From the sequence record OL770310: a DNA stretch of 64,000 nucleotides. One strand, 5' to 3'. How positions within the stretch are numbered: the first letter of the stretch is position 1; each line of letters starts with the position of its first letter. This document shows positions 1-12,843 of this stretch, piece by piece. Made by a program: the position numbers and the translations under genes. The notes under the pieces were generated by a model. That model made no database searches, was not told where the DNA came from, and was given only the letters and a program-made list of their open reading frames with translations. This DNA comes from Escherichia phage PSa2.

Positions 1-271
1 ATTTTATCTCGGCCTATTTCGAGAGTCTTGAGGAAGCTGAAAGTGCGATAAGGGAAGCACGTGAGAAAGTATGTGGTGAGTTCACAAACCACGGTTAATA
101 GCGCTAATTTGAAAATTTTGAAATTTCATAAGATTACACATGCGGATGTGCTCAGTGGGACGGGGGATAGTTAGTAGTCTAATAATCCCCCTGTGTTACT
201 ATTACCATGCTAACTGTTTCATCCTGTAACCATTTTTTAATTACAAGATGAAACTATTTTATTTTTAATTG

Positions 272-1006
272 TTAGGCAACTTTTAATTTATCAATGAATT
301 GTTGCGGTGTGGTACTATATTCCGCGCGTTCTTCCTCGGTCATACCTTCCCAACACATTTTTAAACGGTCGGCTAGGAATTGATAATCATTATCATCATC
401 TAATGATTCATCAATAAAGGTTTCACCTATCAATGTTACCCCGATTGATAGGATATCGTTAACGGCTTGAGCGTCCAGCGTTTTAAATCCAGCATTTGCC
501 GCCGCTGATAATACACCTTTATGATCATCAATCATCGTAAAATCAGCGTTAGGATATAGCTGTTTAAACAGTTCAAAGTAATAAGACTTATATACAGCGT
601 CTTTGCTGTGGTATATTTCGCTAACCTTACCCGCTTCAAAGTATTTATGTAATGTATCGCGGGAAAATACGCGAATATTACTATTTCCGCGCCCTCTTAG
701 ACTTTGTTTACGCAAGAAATAATAATCAGATTTACCCATTAAGCGAGCGGTACAAATAAGGTTTAAGGTATTGGGATCATTCATACATTGGCGCATATAT
801 TCAACCAATGGCAATAAAGAATCCTGCATAATTAAATCATGCTTGCAGGCTTCGCGGGAATATTTATTTAAATCTAAATTCCCGTTATCGTCAAAGCAAG
901 GCGCTACACGATGGAAAGAATTTATAATCGTTCCGTCTAAATCCCAAATCATAACGCGGGAAATATGCGGGAAAGTGCGGGTAATATTCATTTTAACTTG
1001 ATTCAT
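272..1006 (-). CDS. dmp: 5'-deoxyribonucleotidase, HAD-family phosphatase (T5 Dmp-like)
   Basis: 244-aa ORF; N-terminal HAD motif I (WDLDGTII); position at extreme left of the pre-early block as in T5. Confidence 0.65.
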   Translation of the reverse strand: MNQVKMNITRTFPHISRVMIWDLDGTIINSFHRVAPCFDDNGNLDLNKYSREACKHDLIMQDSLLPLVEYMRQCMNDPNTLNLICTARLMGKSDYYFLRKQSLRGRGNSNIRVFSRDTLHKYFEAGKVSEIYHSKDAVYKSYYFELFKQLYPNADFTMIDDHKGVLSAAANAGFKTLDAQAVNDILSIGVTLIGETFIDESLDDDNDYQFLADRLKMCWEGMTEEERAEYSTTPQQFIDKLKVA

Positions 1007-1093
1007 TTGTTACATTCTCCATTTAAGGGATTTAGGTTAATTCAATCTTGCCAGCTAATTATATTAGATTAGCTGGCAATGTTCAATTAACTA

Positions 1094-1486
1094 TTAATTA
1101 GTGAGGCCATACGCTAGCGCGTCACCAATAAAGCTAAGATCTTCACCATGTACGCTAGAACGAATCCCCGCGCAAGTATAAACCATTGCGCTAGCTTCTG
1201 GATTGCAGACCGGACACGGCTTAACAACTGCAAACGCTAGACCGGATTTAAGCGCATCAATAATAATTGTTTGCACTGTCAAAGTATCAGCGTAAACGCC
1301 TTTTGCTTTCGTATGGCTTGCCACTTTGCCGGTATCATAAGCAAAGGTAGTAACCTGCAAAGCGTCGTTATAATTCAGCAAATCAAAATTAACTTGCCCC
1401 GCCTCGACGTGATAACGTTCACCATTAGAATAAACTAGAACGATGGAAGAAGTAGCGCGGTCAAAAGGAATGTTTTGGTTTTTCAT
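1094..1486 (-). CDS. pre-early hypothetical protein (A2 candidate by size and position)
   Basis: 130-aa ORF between dmp-like and A1-like genes; no motif recognised. Confidence 0.45.
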   Translation of the reverse strand: MKNQNIPFDRATSSIVLVYSNGERYHVEAGQVNFDLLNYNDALQVTTFAYDTGKVASHTKAKGVYADTLTVQTIIIDALKSGLAFAVVKPCPVCNPEASAMVYTCAGIRSSVHGEDLSFIGDALAYGLTN

Positions 1487-1522
1487 GTTTATGACTCCAG
1501 ATTATTTAATTACGGGATTAAA

Positions 1523-1783
1523 TTATTTAATACTGATTTGCATTTGATAGCCGGTTAATTCGCCTTTGGTCGGATAATCATTATCATCTAACCATTCCGC
1601 AAAATCAGCGGTATTATTAAAGCAAATAACATCACTATCATTTGAATCTATAACTACAACGCCGTTATTATTTTCTGACTCAGCGGCGAATAAATGCCCG
1701 AATTGATAAACCTTGCCCGATAAAATATCATGAGCGTCTACTAAATCGGATTTATTTATATTCTTTGGTAACACTACATTCAT
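1523..1783 (-). CDS. hypothetical acidic protein
   Basis: 86-aa ORF, same strand, tight packing. Confidence 0.4.
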   Translation of the reverse strand: MNVVLPKNINKSDLVDAHDILSGKVYQFGHLFAAESENNNGVVVIDSNDSDVICFNNTADFAEWLDDNDYPTKGELTGYQMQISIK

Positions 1784-1836
1784 TTAATTTTACCTTTTAT
1801 TAATGGCGGTATATTTCAACCGCCGATTAAATTTAA

Positions 1837-3504
1837 TTATGCAAAGAATTTACCGTTTTTGAAATCAATCAAAGTACGTTGCCCGTTTGCATAGGTAATT
1901 AAATGCGTTTGCGTCCAGCTTGACGCGCCCACGTTGTAACCCATATCGAGACTACCAGCAACGCCAGCGGTATAAACGCCGCCGTAAATGCTAGCCGTAT
2001 GAGTATGACCAGTGTTAAGGCGTCCCAACTTTTTAAACTGCTTAGGATTGCCCCGACTGCCGTTAATGCCATTGTGACCATGTACGCCGCACTCAATTCC
2101 TGCAATCTTGAAAGATTGGTCAGTAGTCAGGAAAATAGCGTTAAATTCGCAACCTGCGACGTTCCGCAAGGCGTAATCTAGCACGTTAAAGGTATCATCC
2201 TTTTCAGCAATAGCGGCGTAAATCGCAGCGTTTAGACGGTGATACAATTCCGCGTTTGCGGGATCGTCTTTAATGTTAGCGTTACGATCATCAAGCCAGC
2301 GTGAAAGAGCTAAATCATGGTTAGATTCCACAATGATTGTTTGAGAGAAATCACGCTCCATAGACTCTAATACGCGGCCCGTATCGATAAGATCATCAAT
2401 AACTTTATCACGTCCGGCGGCGTATTGTTTAGCAAGGAATACACCACTTGCGCGGTTATGGTGATTGCGGGATGTAAAATCATGCACATCATGAATAAAT
2501 TGATATTTCGGTTTAAGAATATCAAGCAAGCTGTTTTCACTAGCCCATGAAGCGACGGCGCAATCATCATCTAGTTTTTCGGCGTGAATATCGCCATATT
2601 GCAAGCCTAGAACATGATCGGACGTTTCAAAACATCCGGTAGGCATAGCGCAAACATTCAAATCATAGAACATTCCGCTTTCATCCATTGTTTCAAGTTG
2701 GCGGCAATAAAATTCTCCGTCGTCGTCAAATTCTACCAGCAAAGCGCCGTAATTATGTAAAGCCTCGGCCTTTTGTCCTGCTTTCTGCTGAATGTAGTTT
2801 TTAAGCGTAGCCGTTCCGGTTGAATACATACGGCGCACTACTTCACCTTTTAACGCTGGTACACTTTCAGCGGTAATTTTTGCCGCACCAATTGCCAGAC
2901 CTTCAATATTTAAAGCCGTGGCGGTTTCTGCGAATCCTGTAAGCGGATAATCTGCCGTTGGTAATACGTTAATTTCAGACATGAAAGCAAAGCGGCGATT
3001 ATTCAGGAAAACATTTTTATCACAGATATATTTATCAAATGCGGGATCGTATTTAATTTTTTCTTTGCTGCCGTCGCCGTTCTGGAATCCATTTTTATTG
3101 TAAATGAATTTACTAACCAGCAATTCACCGCCGATATATTCAGCGAATTTTTCCAGACTTGCTAAAAAGTTTTTATGCGGGAAAGTATTATTTTGAATCG
3201 ACGTTAGAATAAAACGGCGACCGGATTTAACTTCCCATTGTTCCACGGTACTAGAAACAATCCCCGCCGCTTCGGGGCGATCATCATTTTTAATCGCCTT
3301 TTCAGCTTTTGCCGCTTTCGGTTTCGCTGGCTTGTTTGCTTCTAACCAGTCACAAATTGCGGTTGAATGTTTCGTTGTATCGTAAACAGCTTTTGAAATA
3401 TCGTCGCAAACTTCTAATTTAGTAGCGCGCAAACGCTTACCATAGAAATTAAAATCAGCGGCCATTTTCAGAATTTGAGCTTGTTTTTCTGCGGAAATAT
3501 TCAT
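1837..3504 (-). CDS. A1: A1-like pre-early protein with calcineurin-like metallophosphoesterase motifs
   Basis: 555-aa ORF; motifs LQYGDIHAEK, GHNGINGSRGN, GHTHT; size and position match T5 A1. Confidence 0.65.
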   Translation of the reverse strand: MNISAEKQAQILKMAADFNFYGKRLRATKLEVCDDISKAVYDTTKHSTAICDWLEANKPAKPKAAKAEKAIKNDDRPEAAGIVSSTVEQWEVKSGRRFILTSIQNNTFPHKNFLASLEKFAEYIGGELLVSKFIYNKNGFQNGDGSKEKIKYDPAFDKYICDKNVFLNNRRFAFMSEINVLPTADYPLTGFAETATALNIEGLAIGAAKITAESVPALKGEVVRRMYSTGTATLKNYIQQKAGQKAEALHNYGALLVEFDDDGEFYCRQLETMDESGMFYDLNVCAMPTGCFETSDHVLGLQYGDIHAEKLDDDCAVASWASENSLLDILKPKYQFIHDVHDFTSRNHHNRASGVFLAKQYAAGRDKVIDDLIDTGRVLESMERDFSQTIIVESNHDLALSRWLDDRNANIKDDPANAELYHRLNAAIYAAIAEKDDTFNVLDYALRNVAGCEFNAIFLTTDQSFKIAGIECGVHGHNGINGSRGNPKQFKKLGRLNTGHTHTASIYGGVYTAGVAGSLDMGYNVGASSWTQTHLITYANGQRTLIDFKNGKFFA

Positions 3505-3542
3505 AACTAATTCAACTCCTATAAAGGGATAAAGATTAAAGC

Positions 3543-3556
3543 TGGCAATATTGCCA
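3543..3556. promoter_or_regulatory. perfect 14-bp palindrome TGGCAATATTGCCA about 40 bp upstream of the A1-like start
   Basis: read directly; half sites TGGCAAT/ATTGCCA. Confidence 0.3.
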
Positions 3557-3613
3557 AATATAACGCCTTGCCTGAAGTGAGGACAATTTAAAAGGCGTTA
3601 TAATTTGCAACAT

Positions 3614-3838
3614 TTAATTAAGCGGCATTAAACTAGAACAAAAGCCAAATACAATGCCAATTGTAAGAAAGATAATTGACAGATATTTTTGAATGTTCGC
3701 GTTTTTGCGGAAATTATTTGCGGCGTAAACGTTATTAATTCCAATTATTGCCAGAATTGACCTCGTATAATTCAGAATAAAAGCGGCGGCAATAATAAAT
3801 AAACCTAAAATAAACGCTTCGCTAGGATAAAAGATCAA
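3614..3838 (-). CDS. small membrane protein (two hydrophobic segments)
   Basis: 74-aa ORF, hydrophobic stretches. Confidence 0.35.
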   Translation of the reverse strand: MIFYPSEAFILGLFIIAAAFILNYTRSILAIIGINNVYAANNFRKNANIQKYLSIIFLTIGIVFGFCSSLMPLN

Positions 3839-3858
3839 GATTATTCTCCTTTAAGGGT

Positions 3859-3880
3859 TAGCGGGGAATATTCCCCGCTA
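3859..3880. terminator. perfect 22-bp palindrome TAGCGGGGAATATTCCCCGCTA (hairpin, terminator-like)
   Basis: read directly; lies between two minus-strand ORFs; same arms as hairpin at 7308. Confidence 0.35.
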
Positions 3881-3888
3881 GTTAAAAT

Positions 3889-4305
3889 TTATTCACCTGC
3901 GGCCTGTTTTACTTCCTCCGCTACGCCTAACAATTGCGCTACAGCTTCCAGCGTTTCCAGTTTTGCACTTTCCAGACTTGCCAGATCGTCGGCGTCTTTA
4001 ATAACGCCGCTATCAATAGCGTGTTTAGCGATGACGCGCACATAGTGAGCTTTACGGACACTAGACCCGCCGCCAACTTTACGCGGTTTATCGCTTTTCT
4101 GGTATGCTTTTGCGCTTGTCAGTTTAGAACGTACAGAAACAGGACTTGCAGCGCCAACGGCGGCGGCAATTTCTTTCAGGCCGTCACTGTTAGCAAATTC
4201 AATTCCGCTTTTAGCGACCATTTCAGAATACATAGAAACAGCTTTTTCGGTGTTTTCTTCGTTCCAAGAGAATTTTGCGGTTTTTTCGGTTTTAACGTTA
4301 GACAT
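3889..4305 (-). CDS. hypothetical protein
   Basis: 138-aa ORF. Confidence 0.5.
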   Translation of the reverse strand: MSNVKTEKTAKFSWNEENTEKAVSMYSEMVAKSGIEFANSDGLKEIAAAVGAASPVSVRSKLTSAKAYQKSDKPRKVGGGSSVRKAHYVRVIAKHAIDSGVIKDADDLASLESAKLETLEAVAQLLGVAEEVKQAAGE

Positions 4306-4591
4306 AATTTAATACTCCATTCAATTATTAATTAAGGGATTATGATTAACTAAATGTTAATCGCTATATATTCTATTAGCTAGAATATATAACGGAAACA
4401 TTTTATTTTTATTTCCAGTTTCAAGCGGTTTATTAATTCCCGAATATATTTATATTCTCACCTTATCCGGCTTGCCAGAGAATTAATAAGGCAACATTGT
4501 ATTTATACGCTGTTTATTATTCCGTTCACGCTAGGAATATTTCGAGTTATCTTTATTGCCTAACTAAGCATGATATGTAAGGCGCATTAAT

Positions 4592-4843
4592 TTATGCGAT
4601 AGCTTGCCATTTATCATCTTTCTGAATGATTTTTACAACGTCGCCAGATTTAACACGGACGTTATAAATCGGCTTGCCGTTGTTACTGCGTTCCGTTTCC
4701 GCATAGACCGCTTCAATCTTATCAAAGGGATCAAGCGCCGCGCCTTTGATACGTTCGGCTTTTCCGGTTAATTCATCCGTTTTAGTTACAAAAGGAATGA
4801 ATACAGATTGACCTACTTTCGGCGCGGTAATAACGTTTTGCAT
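4592..4843 (-). CDS. hypothetical protein
   Basis: 83-aa ORF. Confidence 0.45.
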   Translation of the reverse strand: MQNVITAPKVGQSVFIPFVTKTDELTGKAERIKGAALDPFDKIEAVYAETERSNNGKPIYNVRVKSGDVVKIIQKDDKWQAIA

Positions 4844-5007
4844 TTTTAATACTCCGGTTTATTGGGGATTATTCCACAATAGCGCCTCGATACTTTGAAA
4901 CGCTATTAGATTATAATCCGCTAGGAGTTAGCCTAAACATTACCGTTATCCAAATTTTTAAAGAGCAGTTACTACAGGGAACATCTTAAAACCTATCGGC
5001 TAGCGTG

Positions 5008-5226
5008 TCAAGCGTTTTTTAAACTTTTTTCGATTTGATGGGAGTTATATAAATCAATCATTATATTACGCCACACCATTTCCAGACCTTGCTGCTTGCC
5101 TTTCTTGTATTGCTTGAATCGGTATTTTATCGATCGTTGCGCTACTGTCAACAAATTTTTTGTTCTGCTATCTAATGCACTAGCAGGTTTCGCACTAATC
5201 ACTAAAGCGTTTTTTGATTTGATCAT
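5008..5226 (-). CDS. small basic protein
   Basis: 72-aa Lys/Arg-rich ORF. Confidence 0.35.
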   Translation of the reverse strand: MIKSKNALVISAKPASALDSRTKNLLTVAQRSIKYRFKQYKKGKQQGLEMVWRNIMIDLYNSHQIEKSLKNA

Positions 5227-5602
5227 TATCGTCGATTCCTTATATTATATAAGTTTACCGCCGATAGGCTTTAAGATGTTCCCTAGTTTTTAAAGAGCGC
5301 GGCGGTAAACTTCCCCGCCGTGTAGTTCGTCATTGCCGCCCTACGTGATAAATAATAGGAGAATACCGAGAAGGGCGCAACCTTATTTTTGTAAAGAAAC
5401 GTAAAGATAAACGCCACTGCACCACGTCCAGCGGCGCACTAAATTTAATGAAACGGGCGCGCGAATAACACCAAAACAACCATTTTAGCAAGTAATTTTT
5501 TCATTTATATTTGCTTTGCCCTACTTGACAAAATCTAAAATCCTCGTGGTGAGGTTTTCTCGGTGTACCCCTTATGATTGCCTATCTTTTCCTTTGAGGC
5601 GC

Positions 5603-5629
5603 TTAGAATGCGTTACAGAGCGTTTTAGA
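5603..5629 (+). repeat. 27-bp direct repeat TTAGAATGCGTTACAGAGCGTTTTAGA, copy 1
   Basis: identical copy at 9681-9707; related TAGAATGCG motifs near 6107 (inverted) and 10778. Confidence 0.6.
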
Positions 5630-5946
5630 CCCTGTTAATAACTTATACAAAAAGCAAAAATGAAATTTAATGAGTTATCCACTTGATTTTTCAAAAAAGT
5701 ATTTTCTGCTATTATTTTTCATTGACAAATAAGTTTAGACGTGCATTGATTGGTTAGCAGACTAACAATCGCTAGGATGATAATCACGCTGGTGGATTGT
5801 AACAGCTGAAACAGTTAGCAGACTATTAATACTCTAAAAACCTATTAGCCAACTAACTATTTCATATTATATAATATACTTATAAATTAAAGAGAAATAA
5901 TAACTATAAGAAACTATCGGCTAAGTGAGAACCACTATCATTTAGG

Positions 5947-5967
5947 TTATTCACAAAGTTATCCACA
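5947..5967 (+). promoter_or_regulatory. two adjacent DnaA-box-like 9-mers (TTATTCACA, TTATCCACA)
   Basis: matches to DnaA box consensus TTATNCACA read directly. Confidence 0.5.
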
Positions 5968-6007
5968 GCACAAAATAACTTGACGCAATAGGTGACGTTT
6001 TGGCGAC

Positions 6008-6016
6008 TTATCCACA
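6008..6016 (+). promoter_or_regulatory. DnaA box TTATCCACA
   Basis: exact consensus 9-mer. Confidence 0.5.
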
Positions 6017-6036
6017 GACTTATATACAGGTTATCC

Positions 6037-6056
6037 TACTGTATAAATATACAGGG
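6037..6056. promoter_or_regulatory. LexA/SOS-box-like palindrome TACTGTATAAATATACAGGG
   Basis: CTGT-N8-ACAG with AT-rich spacer; about 17/20 match to TACTGTATATATATACAGTA. Confidence 0.5.
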
Positions 6057-6303
6057 TAAATAGGTAGCAGTAACAACCGCAATCAAATTTAAGCGGCCTA
6101 GAACGCATTCTAAGCGATTTTCTCACTGCTACCCTTATTATAATAAAGCCTTGTGTACGCTTACATAGAGCTAGAAATAGAAAACGCGCGGTTATCATAA
6201 AAACAGGCAGTAAGCAAGAAATAAAAAACCTTTTCTTTTTTCTTGCCCCTAGTGAACAATTATCTATATCATTCACTCACCGATTAACGAGGGAGACAAA
6301 GAA

Positions 6304-7299
6304 ATGTCTACTGTAAGAATTGCAGTACCAGCAAACGCCACTATTATTAAGGGTAGTTTGCGCAACCTGCTAGACGGATCAAGTCCAGCAAGCCTACAGC
6401 ATACGGCGGCAATGGTTGAAAAGATTCACGATGATATTTTAGATAATAATGATACTCATTATTGTTTAAGTGATTTCACACAACTACTAGACCCTACCCG
6501 CGTTCTAGTGCTTTACAACCGTGACTATCACATCATGCGAAATCAGCGGGGAAGCGATATTGATTTTATCATTGTAGGTCACGACGAAAAAAGCTATATT
6601 GCCCGTGGTTACAATGTACAAGAAAAGGAAATGGTTTTCGCTACTAGCGTAAATGGTATTAATTCCAGCGATGTAGAAGATTTACTATCTAGTATTTGGG
6701 GCGAATTGACAAGCGCCATTAAACGTGCTGATAGTGACGCAATCGAAACAACTGGCGTATTGTGTTTTGAACGCGCTAGCGGTAACATGTTGATCCCTAA
6801 CGATTATTTAGAGTATGGGAATGAATCAAACGTTGCAAACGCTGGATTTACACTTTTACCGCTTGACAATGTAACAAAACAGGATGTAAACTCTCAAACT
6901 TCAAGCGCAAATGCGCAAACTACTGAAAATAAAGGAAATATTATGTCTAAAGTATCTTCTATCGTTGCCGCTAACAAATCTGCCGTTGTAAACGCTGCTA
7001 AACTGGAAGCGGGTAAAATTGCACTAACTCAAATCACAAAAGTAGCGGCTAAAAAAGCGCCGTTTATGATCAAAGGTTATATTGATACTCCGATTGGTCG
7101 CGTAGTGATCGCTAACCTGTTAAGCGTAGCGGTTGACCAGTACGCCCCGACTAATGCGAAAGCGAAAGCGGTAGCAGGCGCAGCAATGGAAGCGGCAATG
7201 CTGGAAATGGTACAGAGTTTCAATATTGCTGAAATGATCGATGAAATGGTAAAAGGTATTGACATTTCTACCTTTACCCAAAACACCGAAACAGAATAA
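6304..7299 (+). CDS. hypothetical protein
   Basis: 331-aa ORF with GAGGGAG RBS; followed by hairpin terminator. Confidence 0.6.
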   Translation: MSTVRIAVPANATIIKGSLRNLLDGSSPASLQHTAAMVEKIHDDILDNNDTHYCLSDFTQLLDPTRVLVLYNRDYHIMRNQRGSDIDFIIVGHDEKSYIARGYNVQEKEMVFATSVNGINSSDVEDLLSSIWGELTSAIKRADSDAIETTGVLCFERASGNMLIPNDYLEYGNESNVANAGFTLLPLDNVTKQDVNSQTSSANAQTTENKGNIMSKVSSIVAANKSAVVNAAKLEAGKIALTQITKVAAKKAPFMIKGYIDTPIGRVVIANLLSVAVDQYAPTNAKAKAVAGAAMEAAMLEMVQSFNIAEMIDEMVKGIDISTFTQNTETE

Positions 7300-7307
7300 T
7301 AATTACT

Positions 7308-7336
7308 AGCGGGGATTATTTCCCCGCTTTACTATT
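7308..7336 (+). terminator. intrinsic terminator hairpin AGCGGGGA-TTATT-TCCCCGCT plus T-rich tail
   Basis: read directly downstream of 6304-7299. Confidence 0.5.
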
Positions 7337-7363
7337 TCCCTGTTAATTGTTAGGAGACTAATT

Positions 7364-7858
7364 ATGTCAGAAGAAAAATATGGCTTTTCGCTAGAAAGTG
7401 TGAATGAAGCTAAACACGATATGATCGTTTTAGTTGATTGTCATACTGGCTATTGCGGGGAGGGCTGGACGGAGGAACATTTTGTTCCCGCTGGCTGTGA
7501 TCTGGACGCTTTCGCAAACGAACACGCATATGATAATGCTTCTCGTTTCGGTAGTGACGGGGAAGAAGATGAAGAAACAGGGGAATGGATTGAAAATGAT
7601 AATGTATATGCGAGTATTTATCATTATCAATTGAGTAAGTCCGGTACTTATGTAAATGGCGGCGATCCTATTAATACCGTTATGAAACTAATTATTAAAC
7701 ACGGTGGCGCGGAAATAATTGGTAACAAGGCGTTATTATACGCAAATCGATTAAAACAGCTTGTTTATATTCCTGATAATTCCCGTTGGGATGAATATGC
7801 CGTTTTACAGAAAGAATTAAAACGCTGTTTCAACATTGAAGCATTAGAAATAGTCTAA
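7364..7858 (+). CDS. hypothetical acidic protein
   Basis: 164-aa ORF. Confidence 0.6.
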   Translation: MSEEKYGFSLESVNEAKHDMIVLVDCHTGYCGEGWTEEHFVPAGCDLDAFANEHAYDNASRFGSDGEEDEETGEWIENDNVYASIYHYQLSKSGTYVNGGDPINTVMKLIIKHGGAEIIGNKALLYANRLKQLVYIPDNSRWDEYAVLQKELKRCFNIEALEIV

Positions 7859-7874
7859 TGTAAAGTTTTGTAAA

Positions 7875-7900
7875 GGTCGCCTATGTTGGCGGCCTTTTTT
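7875..7900 (+). terminator. intrinsic terminator (GGTCGCC-TATGTT-GGCGGCC followed by TTTTTT)
   Basis: 7-bp stem with one G-U, T6 tract. Confidence 0.6.
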
Positions 7901-7965
7901 GTTATAATGCCTTTACACCTAAACGGTGGATTGAAAATTTTCCCTGATTTCTAGGAGGCGTTAAA

Positions 7966-8193
7966 ATGGTGCATTCATCATCTTCTGCAATTTTTAACGG
8001 TATGGAATGGGTATCCGTTCCCGCTATTGTCAGCGTTATGGTTTCTGAATTTGGGATCGGTAAAACTTATGTTACCATTCAGGAGCTTTACGACAACGAC
8101 AAGATTGACCAGCAAACCGCCGGATTTTTGCTGGATGAATTGAAAGCTAACCATTGCACCAAAAAGCAAGCGGCAAAAATTGTTTTAATGTAA
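7966..8193 (+). CDS. hypothetical protein
   Basis: 75-aa ORF with RBS AGGAGG. Confidence 0.5.
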   Translation: MVHSSSSAIFNGMEWVSVPAIVSVMVSEFGIGKTYVTIQELYDNDKIDQQTAGFLLDELKANHCTKKQAAKIVLM

Positions 8194-8200
8194 TTATTAA

Positions 8201-8219
8201 AGGGGATATATTATCCCCT
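8201..8219 (+). terminator. hairpin AGGGGATA-TAT-TATCCCCT (weak T tail)
   Basis: palindrome directly after 7966-8193. Confidence 0.3.
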
Positions 8220-8239
8220 AATTTCTAGGAGCTAATAAA

Positions 8240-8389
8240 ATGGTTATTTTTCGATCTATTCTGGCTAGTATCTTGGGCGCTATTTTATCGCTGTTTGTAA
8301 TAGCTTTCGGCGTTCACGTGGTTATTATTGGAGCAGGTATCGCGGGGTTTTCTTACTTGTTAGGCTGTATGACTGGTAAAGGGGAATAA
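8240..8389 (+). CDS. small hydrophobic membrane peptide (49 aa, below ORF-track cutoff)
   Basis: ATG at 8240 preceded by TAGGAG; MVIFRSILASILGAILSLFVIAFGVHVVIIGAGIAGF. Confidence 0.4.
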   Translation: MVIFRSILASILGAILSLFVIAFGVHVVIIGAGIAGFSYLLGCMTGKGE

Positions 8390-8391
8390 AA

Positions 8392-8604
8392 ATGTTAAAG
8401 AATGTTTCCCTTGCCCGTTCCAAAGGTTTTAAGCTGGTGGATGTTAACACGTTCGAGCGTCCAGATTGTAAAATCGAATATGTAGCACGCAACAAAAACG
8501 CTTTCCGTGTTACAGAAAAGAAATTTGACAAGCGCGGAAATTTGGTAGCCGAAACGGTTAAACACTTTGCCACCTTTTACGCTGCTTTTCGTGGGGTATT
8601 ATGA
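8392..8604 (+). CDS. hypothetical protein
   Basis: 70-aa ORF. Confidence 0.5.
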   Translation: MLKNVSLARSKGFKLVDVNTFERPDCKIEYVARNKNAFRVTEKKFDKRGNLVAETVKHFATFYAAFRGVL

Positions 8605-8713
8605 GATCCTTATATATTGCTCTAGCGTTTGCTACCGTTGGCGTTGTTTGCTCATTCGCTGCATTTGTTTTAAAAATGTACCTGATATTTTCCCAGCTTT
8701 AGGAGGTTGACAA

Positions 8714-9058
8714 ATGGTAATTTATGAGGGTAATCGTTTTGTTACTAATTGCCGTCCGGCATTATTAGCAAACTATTTAAATCAGCTTTCACCAGTTTAT
8801 AAAGGCGTAGTTAATATCTATGAGGGCAAAGCACATTATAAGATTAATGCCATTGTTGCCCGTGAACTAGCGTTTCAATTTTTAACTTTTGGGTCTTGTG
8901 ACGTTCAGGTTATGGGGGAAGCGTTAATAGCGGAAAATGAAAATGAATTTATTGACATTTTCCGCAAAGTATGTACAGAGCGCCTGATTATGAAAGGCGC
9001 ATATATTCAATCAACCGCTGATAGTATTGAAACAGCGTTTCGAAAGGTGGCGCAATGA
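8714..9058 (+). CDS. hypothetical protein
   Basis: 114-aa ORF with AGGAGG RBS. Confidence 0.55.
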   Translation: MVIYEGNRFVTNCRPALLANYLNQLSPVYKGVVNIYEGKAHYKINAIVARELAFQFLTFGSCDVQVMGEALIAENENEFIDIFRKVCTERLIMKGAYIQSTADSIETAFRKVAQ

Positions 9059-9267
9059 AAAAGTTTACTTTAGTTATTAATAATCGTGTAACTATTTCAC
9101 TGGAAGCGGTTACTATAGCCGGTTTTATTGCTAATCTTGCATCGCTAGGGATTTTAAGCGGATACCCTGAATTGTGGGACTGGCTACCTGATGTAAGAAA
9201 CAAGGGAGGCGAATTATACGGAATTACTATTCGCGCAAAATTAACTATAGAGAATTTAAAACCGTGA
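9055..9267 (+). CDS. hypothetical protein
   Basis: 70-aa ORF, start overlaps upstream stop. Confidence 0.5.
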   Translation: MKKFTLVINNRVTISLEAVTIAGFIANLASLGILSGYPELWDWLPDVRNKGGELYGITIRAKLTIENLKP

Positions 9268-9310
9268 ATAGCTGGTGGCGAAAAACACAAAGCCATAAAT
9301 CTAATAATAC

Positions 9311-9341
9311 CGCTGGGAAACATTCCCAGCGTTTACTATTT
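9311..9341 (+). terminator. intrinsic terminator CGCTGGGAAACATTCCCAGCG plus T-rich tail
   Basis: read directly. Confidence 0.5.
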
Positions 9342-9397
9342 GGTAATGGCTTTACAATGATATTGATAATCATTCTCATTCTAGGAGCGATGGCGTT

Positions 9398-9592
9398 ATG
9401 AGTGATAAAATTGTTGTAACTAAAACTACTGTTACCGTTGATACTTTCTTTGTGCCTGATACGCTGGAAAATCGGCAAGCGGTGGAGCGTGGCGATTATG
9501 ATATAGTGATTTATGATAACGATGGTTACTACCAACATTTGGTAGACTCCTACGGCGAAAGCGAAAAGATCACACATCGACTACCAGACTAA
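9398..9592 (+). CDS. hypothetical protein
   Basis: 64-aa ORF with AGGAG RBS. Confidence 0.5.
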   Translation: MSDKIVVTKTTVTVDTFFVPDTLENRQAVERGDYDIVIYDNDGYYQHLVDSYGESEKITHRLPD

Positions 9593-9598
9593 TAATAA

Positions 9599-9628
9599 CG
9601 GGGCGCAACTATCGGCCCCGCCTTTTCT
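9599..9628 (+). terminator. intrinsic terminator CGGGGC-N10-GCCCCG followed by CCTTTTCT
   Basis: read directly after last plus-strand cassette gene. Confidence 0.55.
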
Positions 9629-9680
9629 GCCTGCAAACAAATTTCCCCTTATTAAAGTACCTCCTCCAAAAATAAACGCG

Positions 9681-9707
9681 TTAGAATGCGTTACAGAGCG
9701 TTTTAGA
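9681..9707 (+). repeat. 27-bp direct repeat TTAGAATGCGTTACAGAGCGTTTTAGA, copy 2
   Basis: identical to 5603-5629. Confidence 0.6.
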
Positions 9708-9737
9708 GCTATATTAGAGTTATTCACTACGTAGGAA

Positions 9738-9757
9738 TACTGTATAAATATACAGTA
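9738..9757. promoter_or_regulatory. LexA/SOS box TACTGTATAAATATACAGTA
   Basis: 19/20 match to SOS-box consensus; embedded in a ~28-bp element inverted relative to the copy at 6030-6056. Confidence 0.55.
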
Positions 9758-9838
9758 GAATAACCTGTTGATAAGTCTGTTGAAAACGTCTCAAAATCGC
9801 TAGGATTTTGTCAAGTCAAATCGTGCTGTTAATAAACC

Positions 9839-9847
9839 TGTGGATAA
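9839..9847 (-). promoter_or_regulatory. DnaA box (TGTGGATAA on plus)
   Basis: exact reverse complement of TTATCCACA. Confidence 0.45.
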
Positions 9848-9882
9848 CTTAAATAACAGTGTTTCTCACTTCGCTTTGTAAA

Positions 9883-10023
9883 TGCGAGTCATTCTCATTA
9901 TGCGACTCATTCGCATTCCGCCAATCAAATGATAACCATTCTCATTCCTCTTTCTAAACGCGAATCATTCTCATTCGCATTCAACTTCTCAAATGCGAAT
10001 CAATCTCATTATCATTTGCATTT
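9883..10023 (+). repeat. array of about 5 degenerate direct repeats GCGA(A/G)TCATTCTCATT
   Basis: copies near 9883, 9901, 9932, 9960, 9994. Confidence 0.55.
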
Positions 10024-10060
10024 CGGCAGGCAGGGCATTTTCTATTTGCCCTGCGCTTTT

Positions 10061-10663
10061 GTGCAAATCCGACATTTGCCCCCACGGATTACGTGCCAGC
10101 GTGTATGTGCGAATCCGACAATTTTTGGTGGTGTGCAAATCCGATGGGAAATATTTTTATAATGTGCGAATCCGACAATGAATTTTCCTAAAAACTCCAG
10201 CAATCACGAGCGTGGCTCGATTCCTGTGGAATTAGCTAGAATATGTGCAGAACCGACAAGCGTTAAGGTGTGCGAATCCGACAAGATTTTTGTGACTTCG
10301 ATGAGAGGGTGTGTAATTGTGTGAGTTTGGGGAGAAGTGCGAATCCGACGAGGTTTTTGGGAGGAACTATGGAGGGTGCAGCTGTAGTGGTGCTTCAGCA
10401 CCGGTTTGCTGCGTTTTTGGGGATAATGTGGGATGTTTTGGCTAGAATTGAGATTAGTGGAGATAAAGCGAAATTTTTATTAGCAAAATGGGGCAAAATC
10501 GCTTGACAAGTGAAAATTCCTGTGGCTCCAAAAACTCAGGCAATCAAGGGCCTTCGGCCCGAAATAATGCTGCTATTTTCAGGAGAGTATGTGTTCATGA
10601 AAACTTAGGCAATTGTGCAAATCCGACCATAAATTTCTAGAAACACAATGTGCAAATCCGACA
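10061..10663 (+). repeat. array of 9 dispersed direct repeats TGCGAATCCGACA (variants TGCAAATCCGACA, TGCAGAACCGACA)
   Basis: copies near 10061, 10108, 10133, 10164, 10246, 10270, 10338, 10616, 10651, all same orientation, irregular spacing. Confidence 0.65.
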
Positions 10664-10707
10664 GTAATTTCCAGAAATGTGTTTTCAAAAAAATGTTGTC
10701 TAGAAAT

Positions 10708-10779
10708 AACCGCCCTCCCTATAACCGCCCTGTATAGGAAACCGCCCTAGGATATCTATAGTAGGTGAGAAACTGCCCT
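10708..10779 (+). repeat. four direct repeats AACCGCCCT (one AACTGCCCT)
   Basis: copies at 10708, 10723, 10740, 10771. Confidence 0.55.
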
Positions 10780-11197
10780 AGAATGCGTGAGAAACAGATT
10801 TAAAGTTTGATGTAAACTCTAGAGTTAGTGCTCAACTATTCCTAGAAACTTAGGAGTCTAGAGGAAAGTGTTGTGCCATCCTAGCAGATGAGCGGCAACA
10901 GGTGTATCATCTTGAACATAAATATTGCCTTTAAATATTTATAAGGTAAATAAAAGTAAATATACCCCCATTTCATGAGAGTTAGCCCCTCTAGGCGCGT
11001 GCGATTTGATACATCCTCCTGAGTCTCGGGGAGGAAGAACAATTGACGAGAACCTGCAAGCAGAACCGTCATCAAGTGTTTTCCTACGAGGAATGATGTA
11101 AATCTACGGCCTAGAGGTAAAAACAAGTTGATGTTTTTAATCTATGAGATTATTATAACATGCAGCTCAAATAATGTCAAGAAGATTTTATTAACAT

Positions 11198-11584
11198 TTA
11201 TACATCGTGATTGACTTTGAGTATGACTCCCTTCGATGCCATGAAAAGGAATGTTGCTAAGTAAGATGACTCGGAGTTTAGCGCAGAATAATCTACACTT
11301 CCTCTAGGTCTAGTTTCTTGTTTAGTGTCAAGAATTGTTGATATATCAAACTTAACAAAGTTAGCAATCTTTCTAGCTTGCTCGGGATCACGTAAGAGTT
11401 CATAATGCGCTGCATTTAGAATATTAGTGGATTCAATTACATCATCATTAATTATACTTAGATGAACCTGCGCAAGTATCGAGACAATCCCTAGCTTTAA
11501 CTCAGATACAGAAGAATAAGGTGGTTCTACTTTCTTTGTAAGTCTAGGAAGATGATCATATTTACATTGTTTTTGTGGAATCAT
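11198..11584 (-). CDS. hypothetical protein; reading frame stays open upstream to 11917 (possible frameshifted 238-aa gene)
   Basis: 128-aa ORF from ATG 11584; same frame has no stop back to TAA at 11918-11920; ATG at 11927 lies in +1 frame across an A7 run. Confidence 0.4.
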   Translation of the reverse strand: MIPQKQCKYDHLPRLTKKVEPPYSSVSELKLGIVSILAQVHLSIINDDVIESTNILNAAHYELLRDPEQARKIANFVKFDISTILDTKQETRPRGSVDYSALNSESSYLATFLFMASKGVILKVNHDV

Positions 11585-11923
11585 CAGAATGTTGGGATAA
11601 CATTCTAAACATGACTTTGCATTTCCTTCTTTAAAATGTGGGAGTTCTTTATCAGCAAAGACATGGAATGAATCTGCTGAGAATCCTTTAATAGTAGGGT
11701 CAACAGTTTGAATCAGACGACGTAGACTAATGTATGAAGGAGCTAATGTAACTTCTTCTGCATCTTTATTATACTTGGGCTGTCCACTAGCATTAATATA
11801 TGCAGGATAAAACTCTGCACAAAATGCTATTGCATGTGCCTCTAACTCATTAAGCTGAGAAACACATTTTCCATTACAAGCTCTAGCTAATTTAATAATC
11901 TCTGCTAAATTCTTTTTTTATAC

Positions 11924-12232
11924 TCATATATAATCATCCGGTCTGGGTTTAAGTTCTGTTATTGATTTTGCTGAGGGCTCTAACTTAATCCATGTAAATC
12001 CTAGCTGTTCTGATAGGTGAGAGATATTTCTAGGTGTTATCTTTATATCTGGAGGTAATTTAAATACTAGGTCTTTAAGTAACTTCATATCATCTGAACC
12101 AATGAAGAGAATATACTGCATTTCATCTCTTAGTTCATATTCAGATTCACTCAGGGAGCTAACACCAGCAGTAAATTTATTGAGTTGGGCCACTTTGCAG
12201 CGACCCACGGTAAACTGAGTAATTATATCCAT
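11924..12232 (-). CDS. hypothetical protein
   Basis: 102-aa ORF; start overlaps upstream stop, stop overlaps downstream ATG. Confidence 0.5.
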   Translation of the reverse strand: MDIITQFTVGRCKVAQLNKFTAGVSSLSESEYELRDEMQYILFIGSDDMKLLKDLVFKLPPDIKITPRNISHLSEQLGFTWIKLEPSAKSITELKPRPDDYI

Positions 12233-12843
12233 TAACGACCTCTAGCCTTATCTGCATCAATAGCTTCGAATACTTTCGTTAACATTTCTTCAAGCTCTCC
12301 ATCTTTGCTAGGGTTGCTCAGATGAATAGTATATGAGTTCCTAGAAACTCCGGAGTCTTCCTGTGCTCCGCGATCTTTAGCAAAACTCATCATTGTAACA
12401 CCAGCTTTGTTCCACTCATCTACGTTAGACGCTTCCCCAAACTTATATGACTGTGTACTATTTACTATACCACCACACTTAATATTGTGCATATCCGACA
12501 TTAATCTTTTATCAGAATTATTTAACATCGTGATTGGTCCAGACTGCCACGGATCTCGAATAGTCACTGGAGTACTAGGGCGGTTCACCTCAGTCTTCAC
12601 AAGTTTGTATCCAGCATCGATTAGTGAATTAATCAGATTATCAGCCGGGATGCGAGCCGTGCCAAAGATCTTACTAGCATTCATAAGTTTAGCCTGAAAC
12701 TCTTTGCAAGCCTGAAGATCAATGTGCAAAAACGACAGCTGCATAGATTTAAACTGTACTGTAGCAGTCAGATCTTTAAAGTTGTAATCCCATGTATCGA
12801 GTTCATGATCTGCAACTACTTTAATGGTTTGTTGTGTAAACAT
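12232..12843 (-). CDS. hypothetical protein
   Basis: 203-aa ORF; translationally coupled on both sides. Confidence 0.55.
   Translation of the reverse strand: MFTQQTIKVVADHELDTWDYNFKDLTATVQFKSMQLSFLHIDLQACKEFQAKLMNASKIFGTARIPADNLINSLIDAGYKLVKTEVNRPSTPVTIRDPWQSGPITMLNNSDKRLMSDMHNIKCGGIVNSTQSYKFGEASNVDEWNKAGVTMMSFAKDRGAQEDSGVSRNSYTIHLSNPSKDGELEEMLTKVFEAIDADKARGR

What the first reader, a model, noticed from the sequence alone, without database searches (positions are those of the whole stretch)
9640..10880. Repeat-dense non-coding block with three iteron-like arrays at the end of the pre-early region
Within 1.2 kb there are about five GCGA(A/G)TCATTCTCATT repeats, nine same-orientation TGCGAATCCGACA repeats with irregular spacing, and four AACCGCCCT repeats, next to a DnaA box and a consensus LexA box. 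Spacing is not CRISPR-like. This is the architecture expected for an origin or protein-binding array, and its position matches where T5 is reported to have its injection-stop locus with DnaA boxes. The ORFs called here in the six-frame track read through the repeats and are probably not genes.
Basis: partly seen in the sequence, partly recalled or inferred. Interest (0 to 1): 0.65.

Follow-up and report, generated by a model that had tools for sequence, protein, structure and literature searches.

The report
T5-type injection-stop repeat region
This repeat-packed, gene-free stretch is the already-described "injection stop signal" region at the right end of the long terminal repeat of T5-like phages; it is real and conserved across the whole phage family, but how it works is still unknown.

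Summary
Each of the three repeat arrays clusters far beyond chance, alongside a near-perfect LexA-type palindrome and DnaA-type boxes. The window is an EPS7-like member of the T5 family. The block is 81% identical to T5 over 9616-10923 and collinear with T5's annotated injection stop signal (iss, "Repeat Region 3"), described in the published T5 and Davison analyses.

It is non-coding. ORFs break in relatives, and the survivors show no codon periodicity.

It straddles the terminal-repeat end, which maps to 10528|10529 in four annotated genomes. Two DRD copies and the AACCGCCCT array therefore lie in unique DNA.

The same ordered module recurs in 16 phages of Escherichia, Salmonella, Klebsiella, Pectobacterium and Vibrio. 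The LexA-type palindrome and paired DnaA boxes stay constant. Array 1 and the 3' half of the DRD change with phage lineage. This suggests host-factor sites plus phage-factor sites.

An origin reading is not supported: no GATC and no unwinding element.

The mechanism is unresolved. I could not find the LexA operator mentioned in the literature I could search. A conserved leftward promoter with a structured RNA lies next to the block.

The parts
9600..9626 (+). GC-rich hairpin plus T-run (GGGGCGCAACTATCGGCCCCGCCTTTT). It is the terminator of the rightward pre-early operon, whose last ORF is 9398-9592.
   Evidence: Read directly. It is positionally equivalent to T5's annotated rho-independent terminator at NC_005859 9275-9296. 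The same element is seen in My1, Roth49 and VspSw_1.
9727..9874 (.). IRD'-spacer-IRC', one arm of a long-range inverted repeat. Its partner, IRC-spacer-IRD (Repeat Region 2), lies at 5920-6067.
   Evidence: A 148-nt inverted repeat, 72% complementary (I1). Mean identity to the window is 0.93 across 12 phages. Nomenclature follows Davison.
9738..9757 (.). LexA-operator-type palindrome TACTGTATAAATATACAGTA (CTGT-N8-ACAG with an all-A/T spacer).
   Evidence: It has 1 mismatch to the 20-mer consensus, with 0 expected by chance. It is one of only two CTGT-N8-ACAG sites in 64 kb; the other sits in the inverted partner at 6039. The arms are 100% conserved in 12 phages. It is present in all 16 phages of 5 host genera with 3 mismatches or fewer.
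9766..9786 (-). DnaA-type box pair 1: TGTTGATAA-gtc-TGTTGAAAA. Each box is 1 mismatch from TTWTNCACA on the minus strand.
   Evidence: The pair with its 3-bp gap is conserved in all lineages and was described by Davison.
9827..9847 (-). DnaA-type box pair 2: TGTTAATAA-acc-TGTGGATAA. The box at 9839-9847 is an exact consensus TTATCCACA.
   Evidence: The pairs start 61 bp apart, as in T5 and My1 (D7, D9).
9876..10020 (+). Array 1 (T5 DRE/DRC): five dyad-symmetric units. The family consensus is AAATGaGAATcATTCTCATTCgcaTTC, with unit spacings of 18, 29, 29 and 35 bp.
   Evidence: It is present in T5, My1, Roth49 and VspSw_1. In Vibrio phage Ceto an unrelated repeat takes its place.
10031..10053 (.). 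GC-rich palindrome CAGGGCA...TGCCCTG immediately left of the nick site.
   Evidence: The arms are conserved.
10053..10057 (-). GCGC site-specific nick context. T5's major single-chain interruption maps by homology to 10056|10057 on the minus strand.
   Evidence: The T5 annotation places the nick at 9748/9749 on the minus strand. GCCCTGCGCTTTTGTGCAAATCCGACA is 100% conserved in 12 phages. The GCGC-plus-first-DRD arrangement is kept in Roth49, Ceto and VspSw_1. The nick itself cannot be tested here.
10060..10350 (+). DRD cluster A: seven same-orientation copies of TGTGCRAATCCGACA, each followed by a T-tract.
   Evidence: There are 7-10 copies per phage and none on the opposite strand. The units are more conserved than the spacers: 0.92 against 0.84, p = 4.6e-9.
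10190..10211 (+). Internal near-duplicate of the sequence that starts right after the terminal-repeat end (AAAAACTCnnGCAATCA plus a small hairpin).
   Evidence: D9 (82% identical to 10530-10551). The same pair occurs in T5 (D11).
10290..10480 (+). G-rich, C-poor tract (G 69, C 18) with TTTGGGG-type runs.
   Evidence: The same compositional feature is seen in T5, My1, Roth49, Ceto and VspSw_1.
10475..10585 (.). Terminal-repeat-end block: GGGGCAAAATCGCTTGACAAGTGAAAATTCCTGTGGCTC|CAAAAACTCAGGCAATCA plus a GGGCCTTCGGCCC hairpin. The last base of the terminal repeat is 10528.
   Evidence: Annotated repeat ends of T5, EscoHU1, SIY1lw and Shivani all map to 10528. Mean identity is 0.945. A homologous block is present in My1 and Roth49. 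In Ceto the repeat end falls 20 nt after the start of TTGACAA.
10614..10663 (+). DRD cluster B: two further same-orientation DRD copies, located in unique DNA past the repeat end.
   Evidence: A DRD cluster downstream of the repeat end is conserved in all lineages.
10708..10779 (+). AACYGCCCT array: three exact copies plus one variant.
   Evidence: Between 1 and 5 copies occur in relatives, including My1 and Roth49.
10837..10917 (.). Highly conserved non-coding block of unknown role (CCTAGAAACTTAGGAGTCTAGAGG...GCGGCAACAGGTGTATCATCTTGAAC). It is the right edge of the homology with T5.
   Evidence: Mean identity is 0.94. Homology with T5 ends at 10923.
5920..6067 (.). Distant partner (Repeat Region 2) with a mirrored DnaA-box cluster (5947, 5959, 6008, 6020) and a second LexA-type core at 6039-6054.
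10960..11180 (-). An adjacent element that travels with the module; whether it belongs to it is uncertain. It comprises a perfect leftward sigma-70 promoter (TTGACA-17-TATAAT with TG, 11180 to 11152) and a structured RNA of about 190 nt (11146 to about 10960) ending in a hairpin plus a U-rich tail.
   Evidence: z = -6.0; z = -6.8. The same plan recurs in T5, Roth49, My1, Ceto and VspSw_1. One-nucleotide indels among close relatives rule out the overlapping 81-aa ORF.

Best explanation
SHOWN
- It lies at the right end of the long terminal repeat of a T5-like (EPS7-like) phage and runs about 390 bp past the repeat end (10528|10529) into unique DNA.
- It is conserved as DNA, not as protein, across the family Demerecviridae.
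- It is an ordered composite:
  1. terminator
  2. LexA-type palindrome
  3. two pairs of DnaA-type boxes, mirrored 3.7 kb to the left
  4. array of dyad units
  5. GC palindrome plus the GCGC nick site
  6. seven same-orientation DRD repeats
  7. G-rich tract
  8. genome-end block
  9. two more DRD repeats
  10. AACCGCCCT repeats

INFERRED
- It works as a cis-acting landing pad for several proteins.
- The LexA-type and DnaA-type sites stay constant in phages of five host genera. They are read by host proteins whose specificity is the same in all these hosts.
- The dyad units and the 3' half of the DRD change with phage lineage. They are read by phage-encoded proteins. The candidates are A2, a Myb/GcrA-like helix-turn-helix protein needed for the second transfer step, or the small terminase subunit.
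- During infection the left part enters the cell. The host-protein/DNA complex, possibly helped by the palindromes, arrests DNA transfer with the DRD1-2 region at the cell surface.
- A1 and A2, made from the transferred DNA, then release or pull in the rest.
- The DRD repeats bracketing the repeat end may also mark the site where genome ends are cut during packaging.
For: Identity:
- 94% identical to EPS7.
- 80.7% identical to T5 over 9616-10923, collinear with T5's annotated iss, terminal repeat and nick.
- The named T5 repeat families are recovered one for one.

Non-coding:
- Most ORFs carry frameshifts or stops in relatives.
- Surviving ORFs have flat codon-position variability (24/21/23, 27/20/27, 18/19/18). 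Flanking genes show 23/10/72 and 24/22/46.
- No Pfam or PHROG hits.

Repeat end: four annotated genomes agree on 10528.

Binding-site footprints:
- DRD units are more conserved than their spacers (p = 4.6e-9).
- The LexA arms are invariant.
- All DRD copies share one orientation in 12 phages.

Deep conservation of order: seen in Klebsiella, Pectobacterium and two Vibrio lineages, although A1 is only about 32% identical.

Host/phage split:
- The LexA-type 20-mer has 3 mismatches or fewer and an all-A/T spacer in 16 of 16 phages. In VspSw_1 the spacer differs while the CTGT/ACAG core arms are kept.
- Array 1 is replaced in Ceto, and the DRD 3' half drifts in Vibrio phages.

Literature:
- The shear point falls in DRD2 and the region is proposed as the iss.
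- The mechanism is still open in 2026.
Against: - No binding has been shown for any of these sites, here or in the papers I could read.
- A cluster of four DnaA-type boxes is not statistically unusual on its own; 16 of 200 shuffles reach it.
- No promoter overlaps the LexA-type site, so it is not a classical SOS operator.
- Proteins binding DNA that is already inside the cell would be expected to help entry, not stop it.
- In vitro, T5 ejects its whole genome into FhuA proteoliposomes (cited). The arrest therefore needs a cell factor, but which one is unknown.
- Some relatives carry a homing endonuclease gene of about 0.6 kb inside DRD cluster A. Precise geometry across the array is therefore not required.
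Confidence: 0.8

Rival explanations
1. Packaging and genome-end site. The DRD repeats are recognition sites for the small terminase subunit. They bracket the cut that creates the right genome end, like the repeated boxes around P1 pac or SPP1 pac or the short-repeat arrays at the T7 concatemer junction. On this reading the arrays have little to do with injection arrest. This is compatible with the best explanation for the left part of the block.
For: - DRD clusters lie on both sides of the repeat end in every lineage. In the window, seven copies lie 180-468 bp before it and two lie 86-133 bp after it.
- The end block is among the most conserved stretches, at 0.945.
- A near-duplicate of the end sequence sits inside cluster A (D9, D11).
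- The left end enters the cell first. By general knowledge of tailed phages, the right end is therefore likely packaged first, so packaging would start here.
Against: - There are no DRD copies at the other repeat boundary in T5.
- Distances from the DRD copies to the end vary between lineages. A 0.6-kb gene insertion inside cluster A is tolerated.
- Nothing is known about T5 terminase recognition in the papers I searched.
- It does not explain the LexA/DnaA module or its mirrored copy.
Confidence: 0.3
2. Transcriptional control region. The LexA-, DnaA- and Fur-like sites are ordinary operators. They tune or terminate pre-early transcription and the convergent leftward transcript, and the repeats are regulatory sites.
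For: - The block lies between convergent transcription units. The rightward operon ends at the 9600-9626 hairpin, and a perfect leftward promoter sits at 11180.
- The mirrored copy lies in the divergent promoter region of the pre-early genes in T5.
- Fur-consensus-like sites are enriched in the terminal repeat: 14 against 1.7 expected.
Against: - No promoter overlaps the LexA-type site. The promoter scan found nothing above 9 of 12 matches inside the block.
- The copy in the mirrored partner is about 200 bp from the nearest annotated T5 promoter.
- Nine same-orientation asymmetric repeats spread over 600 bp are not a typical operator layout.
Confidence: 0.15
3. Replication origin. It would be either DnaA-dependent and oriC-like, or iteron-type.
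For: There are DnaA-type boxes and direct repeats.
Against: - There is no GATC in 9600-10920, against about 5 expected.
- There is no AT-rich 13-mer unwinding element.
- DRD spacing is irregular (25-278 bp) and there is no adjacent initiator gene.
- Skew changes only follow gene orientation.
- The literature places T5 origins near the genome centre, and replication genes are not in the first-transferred DNA.
Confidence: 0.04
4. A cluster of small protein-coding genes, as several GenBank records of relatives annotate here.
For: Some records 'hypothetical proteins' across the region. Three short ORFs stay open in most relatives.
Against: - The surviving ORFs show no third-position excess.
- Frameshifting indels occur between close relatives.
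- The closest relative, EPS7, has a stop in ORF 10178-10324.
- No Shine-Dalgarno sequence is visible upstream (read).
- There are no family hits.
- Careful annotations such as T5 RefSeq, EscoHU1 and HASG4 call nothing here.
Confidence: 0.02

Closest known systems
Phage T5 injection stop signal / 'Repeat Region 3' of the left terminal repeat (Heusterspreute 1987 and Wang 2005 as cited by Davison; Davison bioRxiv 10.1101/866236)
   Same: - Orthologous sequence (81% identical) at the same position.
- The same named elements in the same order: IRD'spacerIRC' with paired DnaA boxes, DRE/DRC units, about nine DRD copies, the GCGC nick site and the repeat end inside the region.
- The same mirrored partner in Repeat Region 2.
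   Different: Only in detail.
- Array 1 has diverged (0.78 identity).
- One DRD copy (10336) is absent from T5, and one T5 copy is degenerate here.
- This genome lacks T5's HNH insertion between Repeat Regions 1 and 2.
- The LexA-type reading of the palindrome is not mentioned in Davison's preprint.
E. coli oriC-type DnaA-box cluster
   Same: Several DnaA-type 9-mers lie close together, including an exact TTATCCACA.
   Different: - There is no AT-rich unwinding element and no GATC cluster; the block has no GATC at all.
- The boxes come in 3-bp-spaced pairs with a mirrored copy 3.7 kb away.
- The locus is not where T5 replication starts.
Terminase recognition sites with repeated boxes around the cut (P1 pac, SPP1 pac, lambda cosB) and the short-repeat arrays at the T7 concatemer junction (from my own knowledge)
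   Same: Short repeated motifs lie on both sides of a precisely positioned genome end, and the end sequence itself is highly conserved.
   Different: Terminase binding is untested. The repeats occur at only one of the two repeat boundaries. Distances to the cut vary.
LexA operators (SOS boxes) of Gammaproteobacteria
   Same: 19 of 20 matches to TACTGTATATATATACAGTA. The arms are invariant and the spacer is AT-rich and free to vary across relatives.
   Different: It is not placed over a recognisable promoter. It sits in a virulent phage's non-coding terminal region, duplicated in an inverted partner. Binding is untested.
Plasmid and phage iteron arrays
   Same: Multiple same-orientation copies of a 13-15 bp asymmetric motif, each with a flanking T-tract. 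The copies are more conserved than their spacers.
   Different: The spacing is irregular (25-278 bp). There is no adjacent initiator gene. The array is split by a genome end, and some relatives carry a homing endonuclease gene within it.

Membership tests
T5 iss / Repeat Region 3 | Lies at the right end of the left terminal repeat, after the rightward pre-early operon, and overruns the repeat end. | tested here: met
   The last pre-early ORF is 9398-9592, followed by the terminator at 9600-9626. The repeat end maps to 10528 by four annotated genomes. The block continues to about 10917.
T5 iss / Repeat Region 3 | Sequence homology to the T5 region. | tested here: met
   80.7% identity over window 9616-10923. 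The 12-phage alignment is collinear throughout.
T5 iss / Repeat Region 3 | IRD'spacerIRC' carrying two pairs of DnaA-type boxes with 3-bp gaps, and an inverted partner in Repeat Region 2. | tested here: met
   The pairs lie at 9766/9778 and 9827/9839 and start 61 bp apart, as in T5. The 148-nt inverted partner lies at 5920-6067 with mirrored boxes.
T5 iss / Repeat Region 3 | DRE/DRC units and a series of about nine DRD direct repeats. | tested here: met
   Five dyad units lie in 9884-10010. Nine DRD copies are present, all on the + strand.
T5 iss / Repeat Region 3 | Major site-specific nick in the minus strand. | not testable with these tools
   The sequence context GCCCTGCGC|TTTT is 100% conserved and maps to 10056|10057. 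The nick is a property of virion DNA.
T5 iss / Repeat Region 3 | Arrests DNA transfer at about 8% of the genome until A1 and A2 are made. | not testable with these tools
   A1 and A2 homologues are encoded in the window (1837-3504 and 3889-4305, minus strand). The function itself needs infection experiments.
oriC-type origin | AT-rich unwinding element and a GATC cluster next to the DnaA boxes. | tested here: not met
   There are zero GATC in 9600-10920, against 4.0 per kb in the window. No 13-mer-type AT-rich repeats are present.
oriC-type origin | DnaA-box density above chance. | tested here: inconclusive
   There are 10 exact boxes in the window against 7.9 expected. A cluster of 4 within 85 bp is reached by 16 of 200 shuffles. 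The arrangement is conserved family-wide.
Iteron-type origin | Regularly spaced iterons next to an initiator gene. | tested here: not met
   Spacings range from 25 to 278 bp. No initiator gene is adjacent. Neighbouring ORFs have no family hits.
LexA operator (SOS box) | CTGT-N8-ACAG palindrome with an AT-rich spacer, close to the 20-mer consensus. | tested here: met
   19 of 20 matches, with 0 expected by chance. It is conserved in 16 of 16 phages, and in VspSw_1 the spacer varies while the CTGT/ACAG core arms are kept.
LexA operator (SOS box) | Overlaps or adjoins a promoter that it represses, and binds LexA. | tested here: inconclusive
   The consensus scan finds no convincing promoter at the site. 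Binding cannot be tested here.
Terminase pac/cos-type site | Repeated recognition elements flanking a defined cleavage position. | tested here: met
   DRD clusters lie on both sides of 10528|10529 in all lineages. This is geometry only.
Terminase pac/cos-type site | Bound and cut by the phage terminase. | not testable with these tools
   No data.
Fur operator (considered for array 1) | Match to the 19-bp Fur box or the 7-1-7 motif across the repeat copies. | tested here: not met
   Only one copy (9930) is within 2 mismatches of the 7-1-7 motif. None is in the Klebsiella phage array. A separate site at 9359-9377 matches 17 of 19.
CRISPR array | Repeats of 28-37 nt with regular unique spacers. 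| tested here: not met
   The repeats are 13-16 nt with irregular spacing.

The most novel reading that the evidence does not exclude
The invariant core of the injection-stop region in all Demerecviridae is a consensus LexA operator fused to paired DnaA boxes, present twice in inverted orientation 3.7 kb apart. On this reading, host LexA together with DnaA is a working part of the two-step injection mechanism. It could act as the tether or plug that halts transfer. It could instead act as an SOS-linked checkpoint that is lifted when A1-driven host DNA breakdown triggers LexA cleavage. The lineage-specific DRD repeats would be the A2-loaded restart ratchet. I found no mention of a LexA site here in the literature I could search.
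Probability: 0.15. Interest if true: 0.7.

Novelty: already known. Interest (0 to 1): 0.3.

Why it matters
T5's two-step DNA injection has lacked a mechanism since 1968. Papers from 2026 still call it poorly understood. The region itself is not new.

The comparison made here sorts its parts into two classes:
- Sites that stay constant across phages of five host genera: the LexA-type palindrome and the DnaA pairs.
- Sites that change with the phage lineage: the dyad units and the DRD 3' half.

The comparison also places the genome end inside the DRD array. Together these give concrete, cheap experiments: host lexA and dnaA mutants, point mutations in the palindrome, and A2 or terminase footprinting.

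For annotation, the 'hypothetical proteins' called across this block in many GenBank records should be removed.

Tried and rejected
1. Fur-operator reading of array 1.
   - The T5 units look Fur-like (TGAGAATCATTATCA is 14 of 15 to the 7-1-7 motif).
   - In this window only one copy comes within 2 mismatches. None does in the Klebsiella phage.
   - Rejected for the array and kept as a side note for 9359-9377.

2. Origin reading. Rejected because there is no GATC and no unwinding element, and because of the literature.

3. Coding reading. Rejected.

4. Known RNA families. Rfam gave no hit at E of 1 or below in 8500-12500.

5. Exact-pattern scan of IMG/VR for the LexA-plus-DnaA composite. It returned a single contig and was not useful for prevalence.

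6. DnaA-box enrichment. It is not significant on its own.

7. Helical phasing of the DRD copies. No consistent phase was found.

8. Covariation test of the adjacent RNA.
   - There is one clean compensatory pair, and 8 pairs have double changes.
   - Many pairs are broken in the divergent variant, and the outer stems are invariant.
   - The result is inconclusive.

9. DRD copies at the other repeat boundary in T5. None were found.

10. A2 against solved structures by sequence. No hit. The fold search gave only modest matches.

11. Davison 2015 review. It is not held in the library.
Full report
**What the window is**

The 2-kb stretch around the finding is 94% identical to Escherichia phage EPS7 and matches more than 500 T5-like phage records. 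The window is therefore an Epseptimavirus-type member of the family Demerecviridae.

Its first 148 bases match the end of T5's unique region just before the right terminal repeat. The assembly therefore carries one collapsed copy of the long terminal repeat, from about 149 to 10528.

**Checking the observation**

All the elements are present, and their clustering is far from chance.

| Element | Copies and position | Against chance |
|---|---|---|
| GCGARTCATTCTCATT | 5 copies in 9884-10010, plus 1 at 9365 | 8 in the window against 1.39 expected; local cluster of 5 against a shuffle maximum of 2 |
| TGTGCRAATCCGA | 9 copies in 10060-10661, all on the + strand; spacings 46, 26, 31, 81, 25, 67, 278, 35 bp | cluster of 9 against a shuffle maximum of 2 |
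| AACCGCCCT | 3 exact copies plus 1 variant within 72 bp | cluster of 4 against a shuffle maximum of 2; the genome-wide count is at chance |
| TACTGTATAAATATACAGTA (9738-9757) | 1 mismatch from the LexA 20-mer consensus | 0 expected |
| DnaA-type boxes | 1 exact box (9839-9847) plus 3 one-mismatch boxes, in two 3-bp-spaced pairs | not unusual on its own (16 of 200 shuffles) |

The LexA-type site is one of only two CTGT-N8-ACAG sites in 64 kb. The DnaA-box element is credible because of its conservation, not its density.

**What it is**

The T5 reference record annotates the homologous stretch as "injection stop signal (iss)" inside the left terminal repeat. It carries a terminator, a major single-strand nick and the repeat end.

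The window aligns to T5 at 80.7% identity over 9616-10923. T5 shows the same repeat families.

Davison's preprint describes this as "Repeat Region 3". It comprises IRD'spacerIRC' with paired DnaA boxes 3 bp apart, two DRE repeats, nine DRD repeats and DRA repeats. It has an inverted partner in Repeat Region 2. In the window that partner is the 148-nt inverted repeat 5920-6067 / 9727-9874. The partner has a mirrored four-box cluster and a second copy of the LexA-type core.

**Non-coding status**

Most mechanical ORFs are frameshifted or interrupted in relatives. The three that stay open show flat variability over codon positions: 24/21/23, 27/20/27 and 18/19/18. Flanking genes show the expected third-position excess: 23/10/72 and 24/22/46. 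None has a Pfam or PHROG match.

**Anatomy and the repeat end**

In a 12-phage alignment the block is conserved from about 9650 to 10917. Mean identity to the window by sub-block:

| Sub-block | Mean identity |
|---|---|
| IRD'spacerIRC' | 0.93 |
| Block around the repeat end | 0.945 |
| 10837-10917 | 0.94 |
| Array 1 | 0.78 |

The annotated repeat ends of T5, EscoHU1, SIY1lw and Shivani all map to window 10528 (CTGTGGCTC|YAAAAAC). Seven DRD copies therefore lie inside the repeat. Two DRD copies and the AACCGCCCT array lie in unique DNA.

T5's nick maps to 10056|10057 on the minus strand, within a 27-nt stretch that is 100% conserved.

DRD units are more conserved than their spacers (0.92 against 0.84, p = 4.6e-9). 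They never occur on the opposite strand in 12 phages.

Array 1 units are dyad-symmetric, with the family consensus AAATGaGAATcATTCTCATTCgcaTTC.

A G-rich, C-poor tract (G 69, C 18) precedes the repeat end. A near-duplicate of the post-end sequence sits inside the DRD array (D9, D11).

**Deep comparison**

The same ordered module is present in four distant lineages:
- Klebsiella phage Roth49
- Pectobacterium phage My1, a different subfamily
- Vibrio phage Ceto
- Vibrio phage VspSw_1

In the Vibrio phages the A1 protein is only about 32% identical.

Across 16 phages the LexA-type 20-mer has 3 mismatches or fewer to the consensus and an all-A/T spacer. In VspSw_1 the spacer sequence differs while the CTGT/ACAG core arms are kept. 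A DnaA-type pair always follows.

In contrast, array 1 is replaced by an unrelated repeat in Ceto. The DRD keeps GTGCRAA but changes its 3' half in both Vibrio phages.

LexA and DnaA have the same specificity throughout Gammaproteobacteria (established knowledge). This pattern therefore fits host-factor sites next to sites for phage-encoded, co-evolving binders.

**Mechanism**

What is shown is identity, non-coding status, position relative to the genome end, and binding-site-like conservation. How it works is inferred.

The published models are Lanni's descriptive model and Davison's proposal. Davison suggests that membrane-bound DnaA holds the DnaA boxes and that A1/A2 cut the DNA free. Papers from 2026 state that the mechanism is still unknown and that A2 may act on viral DNA.

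My best reading is a composite landing pad:
1. Host LexA and DnaA bind the invariant left module.
2. Transfer arrests with DRD1-2 at the cell surface, where the shear point was mapped.
3. Phage proteins acting on the lineage-specific repeats restart transfer.

A serious partial rival is that the DRD copies bracketing the genome end are terminase recognition sites.

An origin is unlikely. The block has no GATC, no unwinding element and no initiator gene, and T5 origins are mid-genome.

**Adjacent element**

Just right of the block, a perfect leftward sigma-70 promoter (11180 to 11152) would drive an RNA of about 190 nt. That RNA folds far better than shuffles (z = -6.0 and -6.8).

The same plan recurs in five other lineages with unalignable sequences: T5, Roth49, My1, Ceto and VspSw_1 (z from -2.3 to -7.3). 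The plan is a near-consensus promoter, a 5' hairpin, a long hairpin, and a 3' hairpin with an A/U-rich tail.

One-nucleotide indels among close relatives exclude the overlapping ORF. Covariation is inconclusive. I found no description of this RNA.

**Verdict**

The element is already known as the T5-family iss / Repeat Region 3.

The extra value here is:
- the exact placement of the repeat end
- the split between host-type and phage-type sites
- the LexA-type operator, apparently unremarked in what I could search (the 1987 and 2015 papers were not readable)
- the neighbouring candidate RNA

Noticed in passing
window 10960-11180, minus strand: A perfect sigma-70 promoter (TTGACA-17-TATAAT with an upstream TG) points leftward into the non-coding block. 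It is followed by a strongly structured RNA of about 190 nt (z about -6 to -7) ending in a hairpin plus a U-rich tail. The same promoter-plus-hairpin plan recurs in T5, Klebsiella, Pectobacterium and two Vibrio phages, although the sequences cannot be aligned. It is a candidate small RNA. There is no Rfam hit and no description in the papers searched.
   Followed up: partly
window 381-395, 1572-1586, 6445-6463, 9359-9377: Sites matching the Fur-box consensus are enriched and concentrated in the terminal repeat (14 matches to the 7-1-7 motif against 1.7 expected). They include a perfect TGATAATCATTATCA at 381 and a 17-of-19 match at 9359-9377, just upstream of the last pre-early ORF (9398-9592). 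The consensus was taken from memory and binding is untested.
   Followed up: partly
window 1-148: The first 148 bases match the end of T5's unique region just before the right terminal repeat. This assembly therefore holds one collapsed copy of the terminal repeat (about 149-10528), as in a concatemer junction.
   Followed up: yes
L006 (Salmonella phage Shivani) 1683-2222; also phages SE7, falkor and KKP_3831: An HNH homing endonuclease gene is inserted inside DRD cluster A in several relatives. It adds about 0.6 kb between the nick site and the terminal-repeat end. Exact spacing across the array is therefore not essential.
   Followed up: partly
window 10290-10480: The top strand has a G-rich, C-poor tract (G 69, C 18) with TTTGGGG-like runs immediately before the genome-end block. 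The composition, though not the sequence, is conserved in all lineages examined. In the Klebsiella phage it contains a canonical four-run G-quadruplex motif.
   Followed up: no
window 9600-10920: The tetranucleotide GATC is completely absent from 1.3 kb, whereas the window averages 4.0 per kb. T5 does have a few GATC sites in its copy, so this may be chance.
   Followed up: no
window 10837-10917: An 81-bp block is about 94% conserved across Tequintavirus and Epseptimavirus, with no ORF, no clear promoter and no repeat. It marks the right edge of the homology with T5. Its function is unknown.
   Followed up: no
[not shown]
   Followed up: partly
GenBank records of relatives, e.g. L014 (GEC_vB_N3) 1166-2683 and L012 (Roth49) 2149-3436: Many deposited genomes annotate 2-9 'hypothetical proteins' across this non-coding block. 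These calls are very likely spurious.
   Followed up: yes
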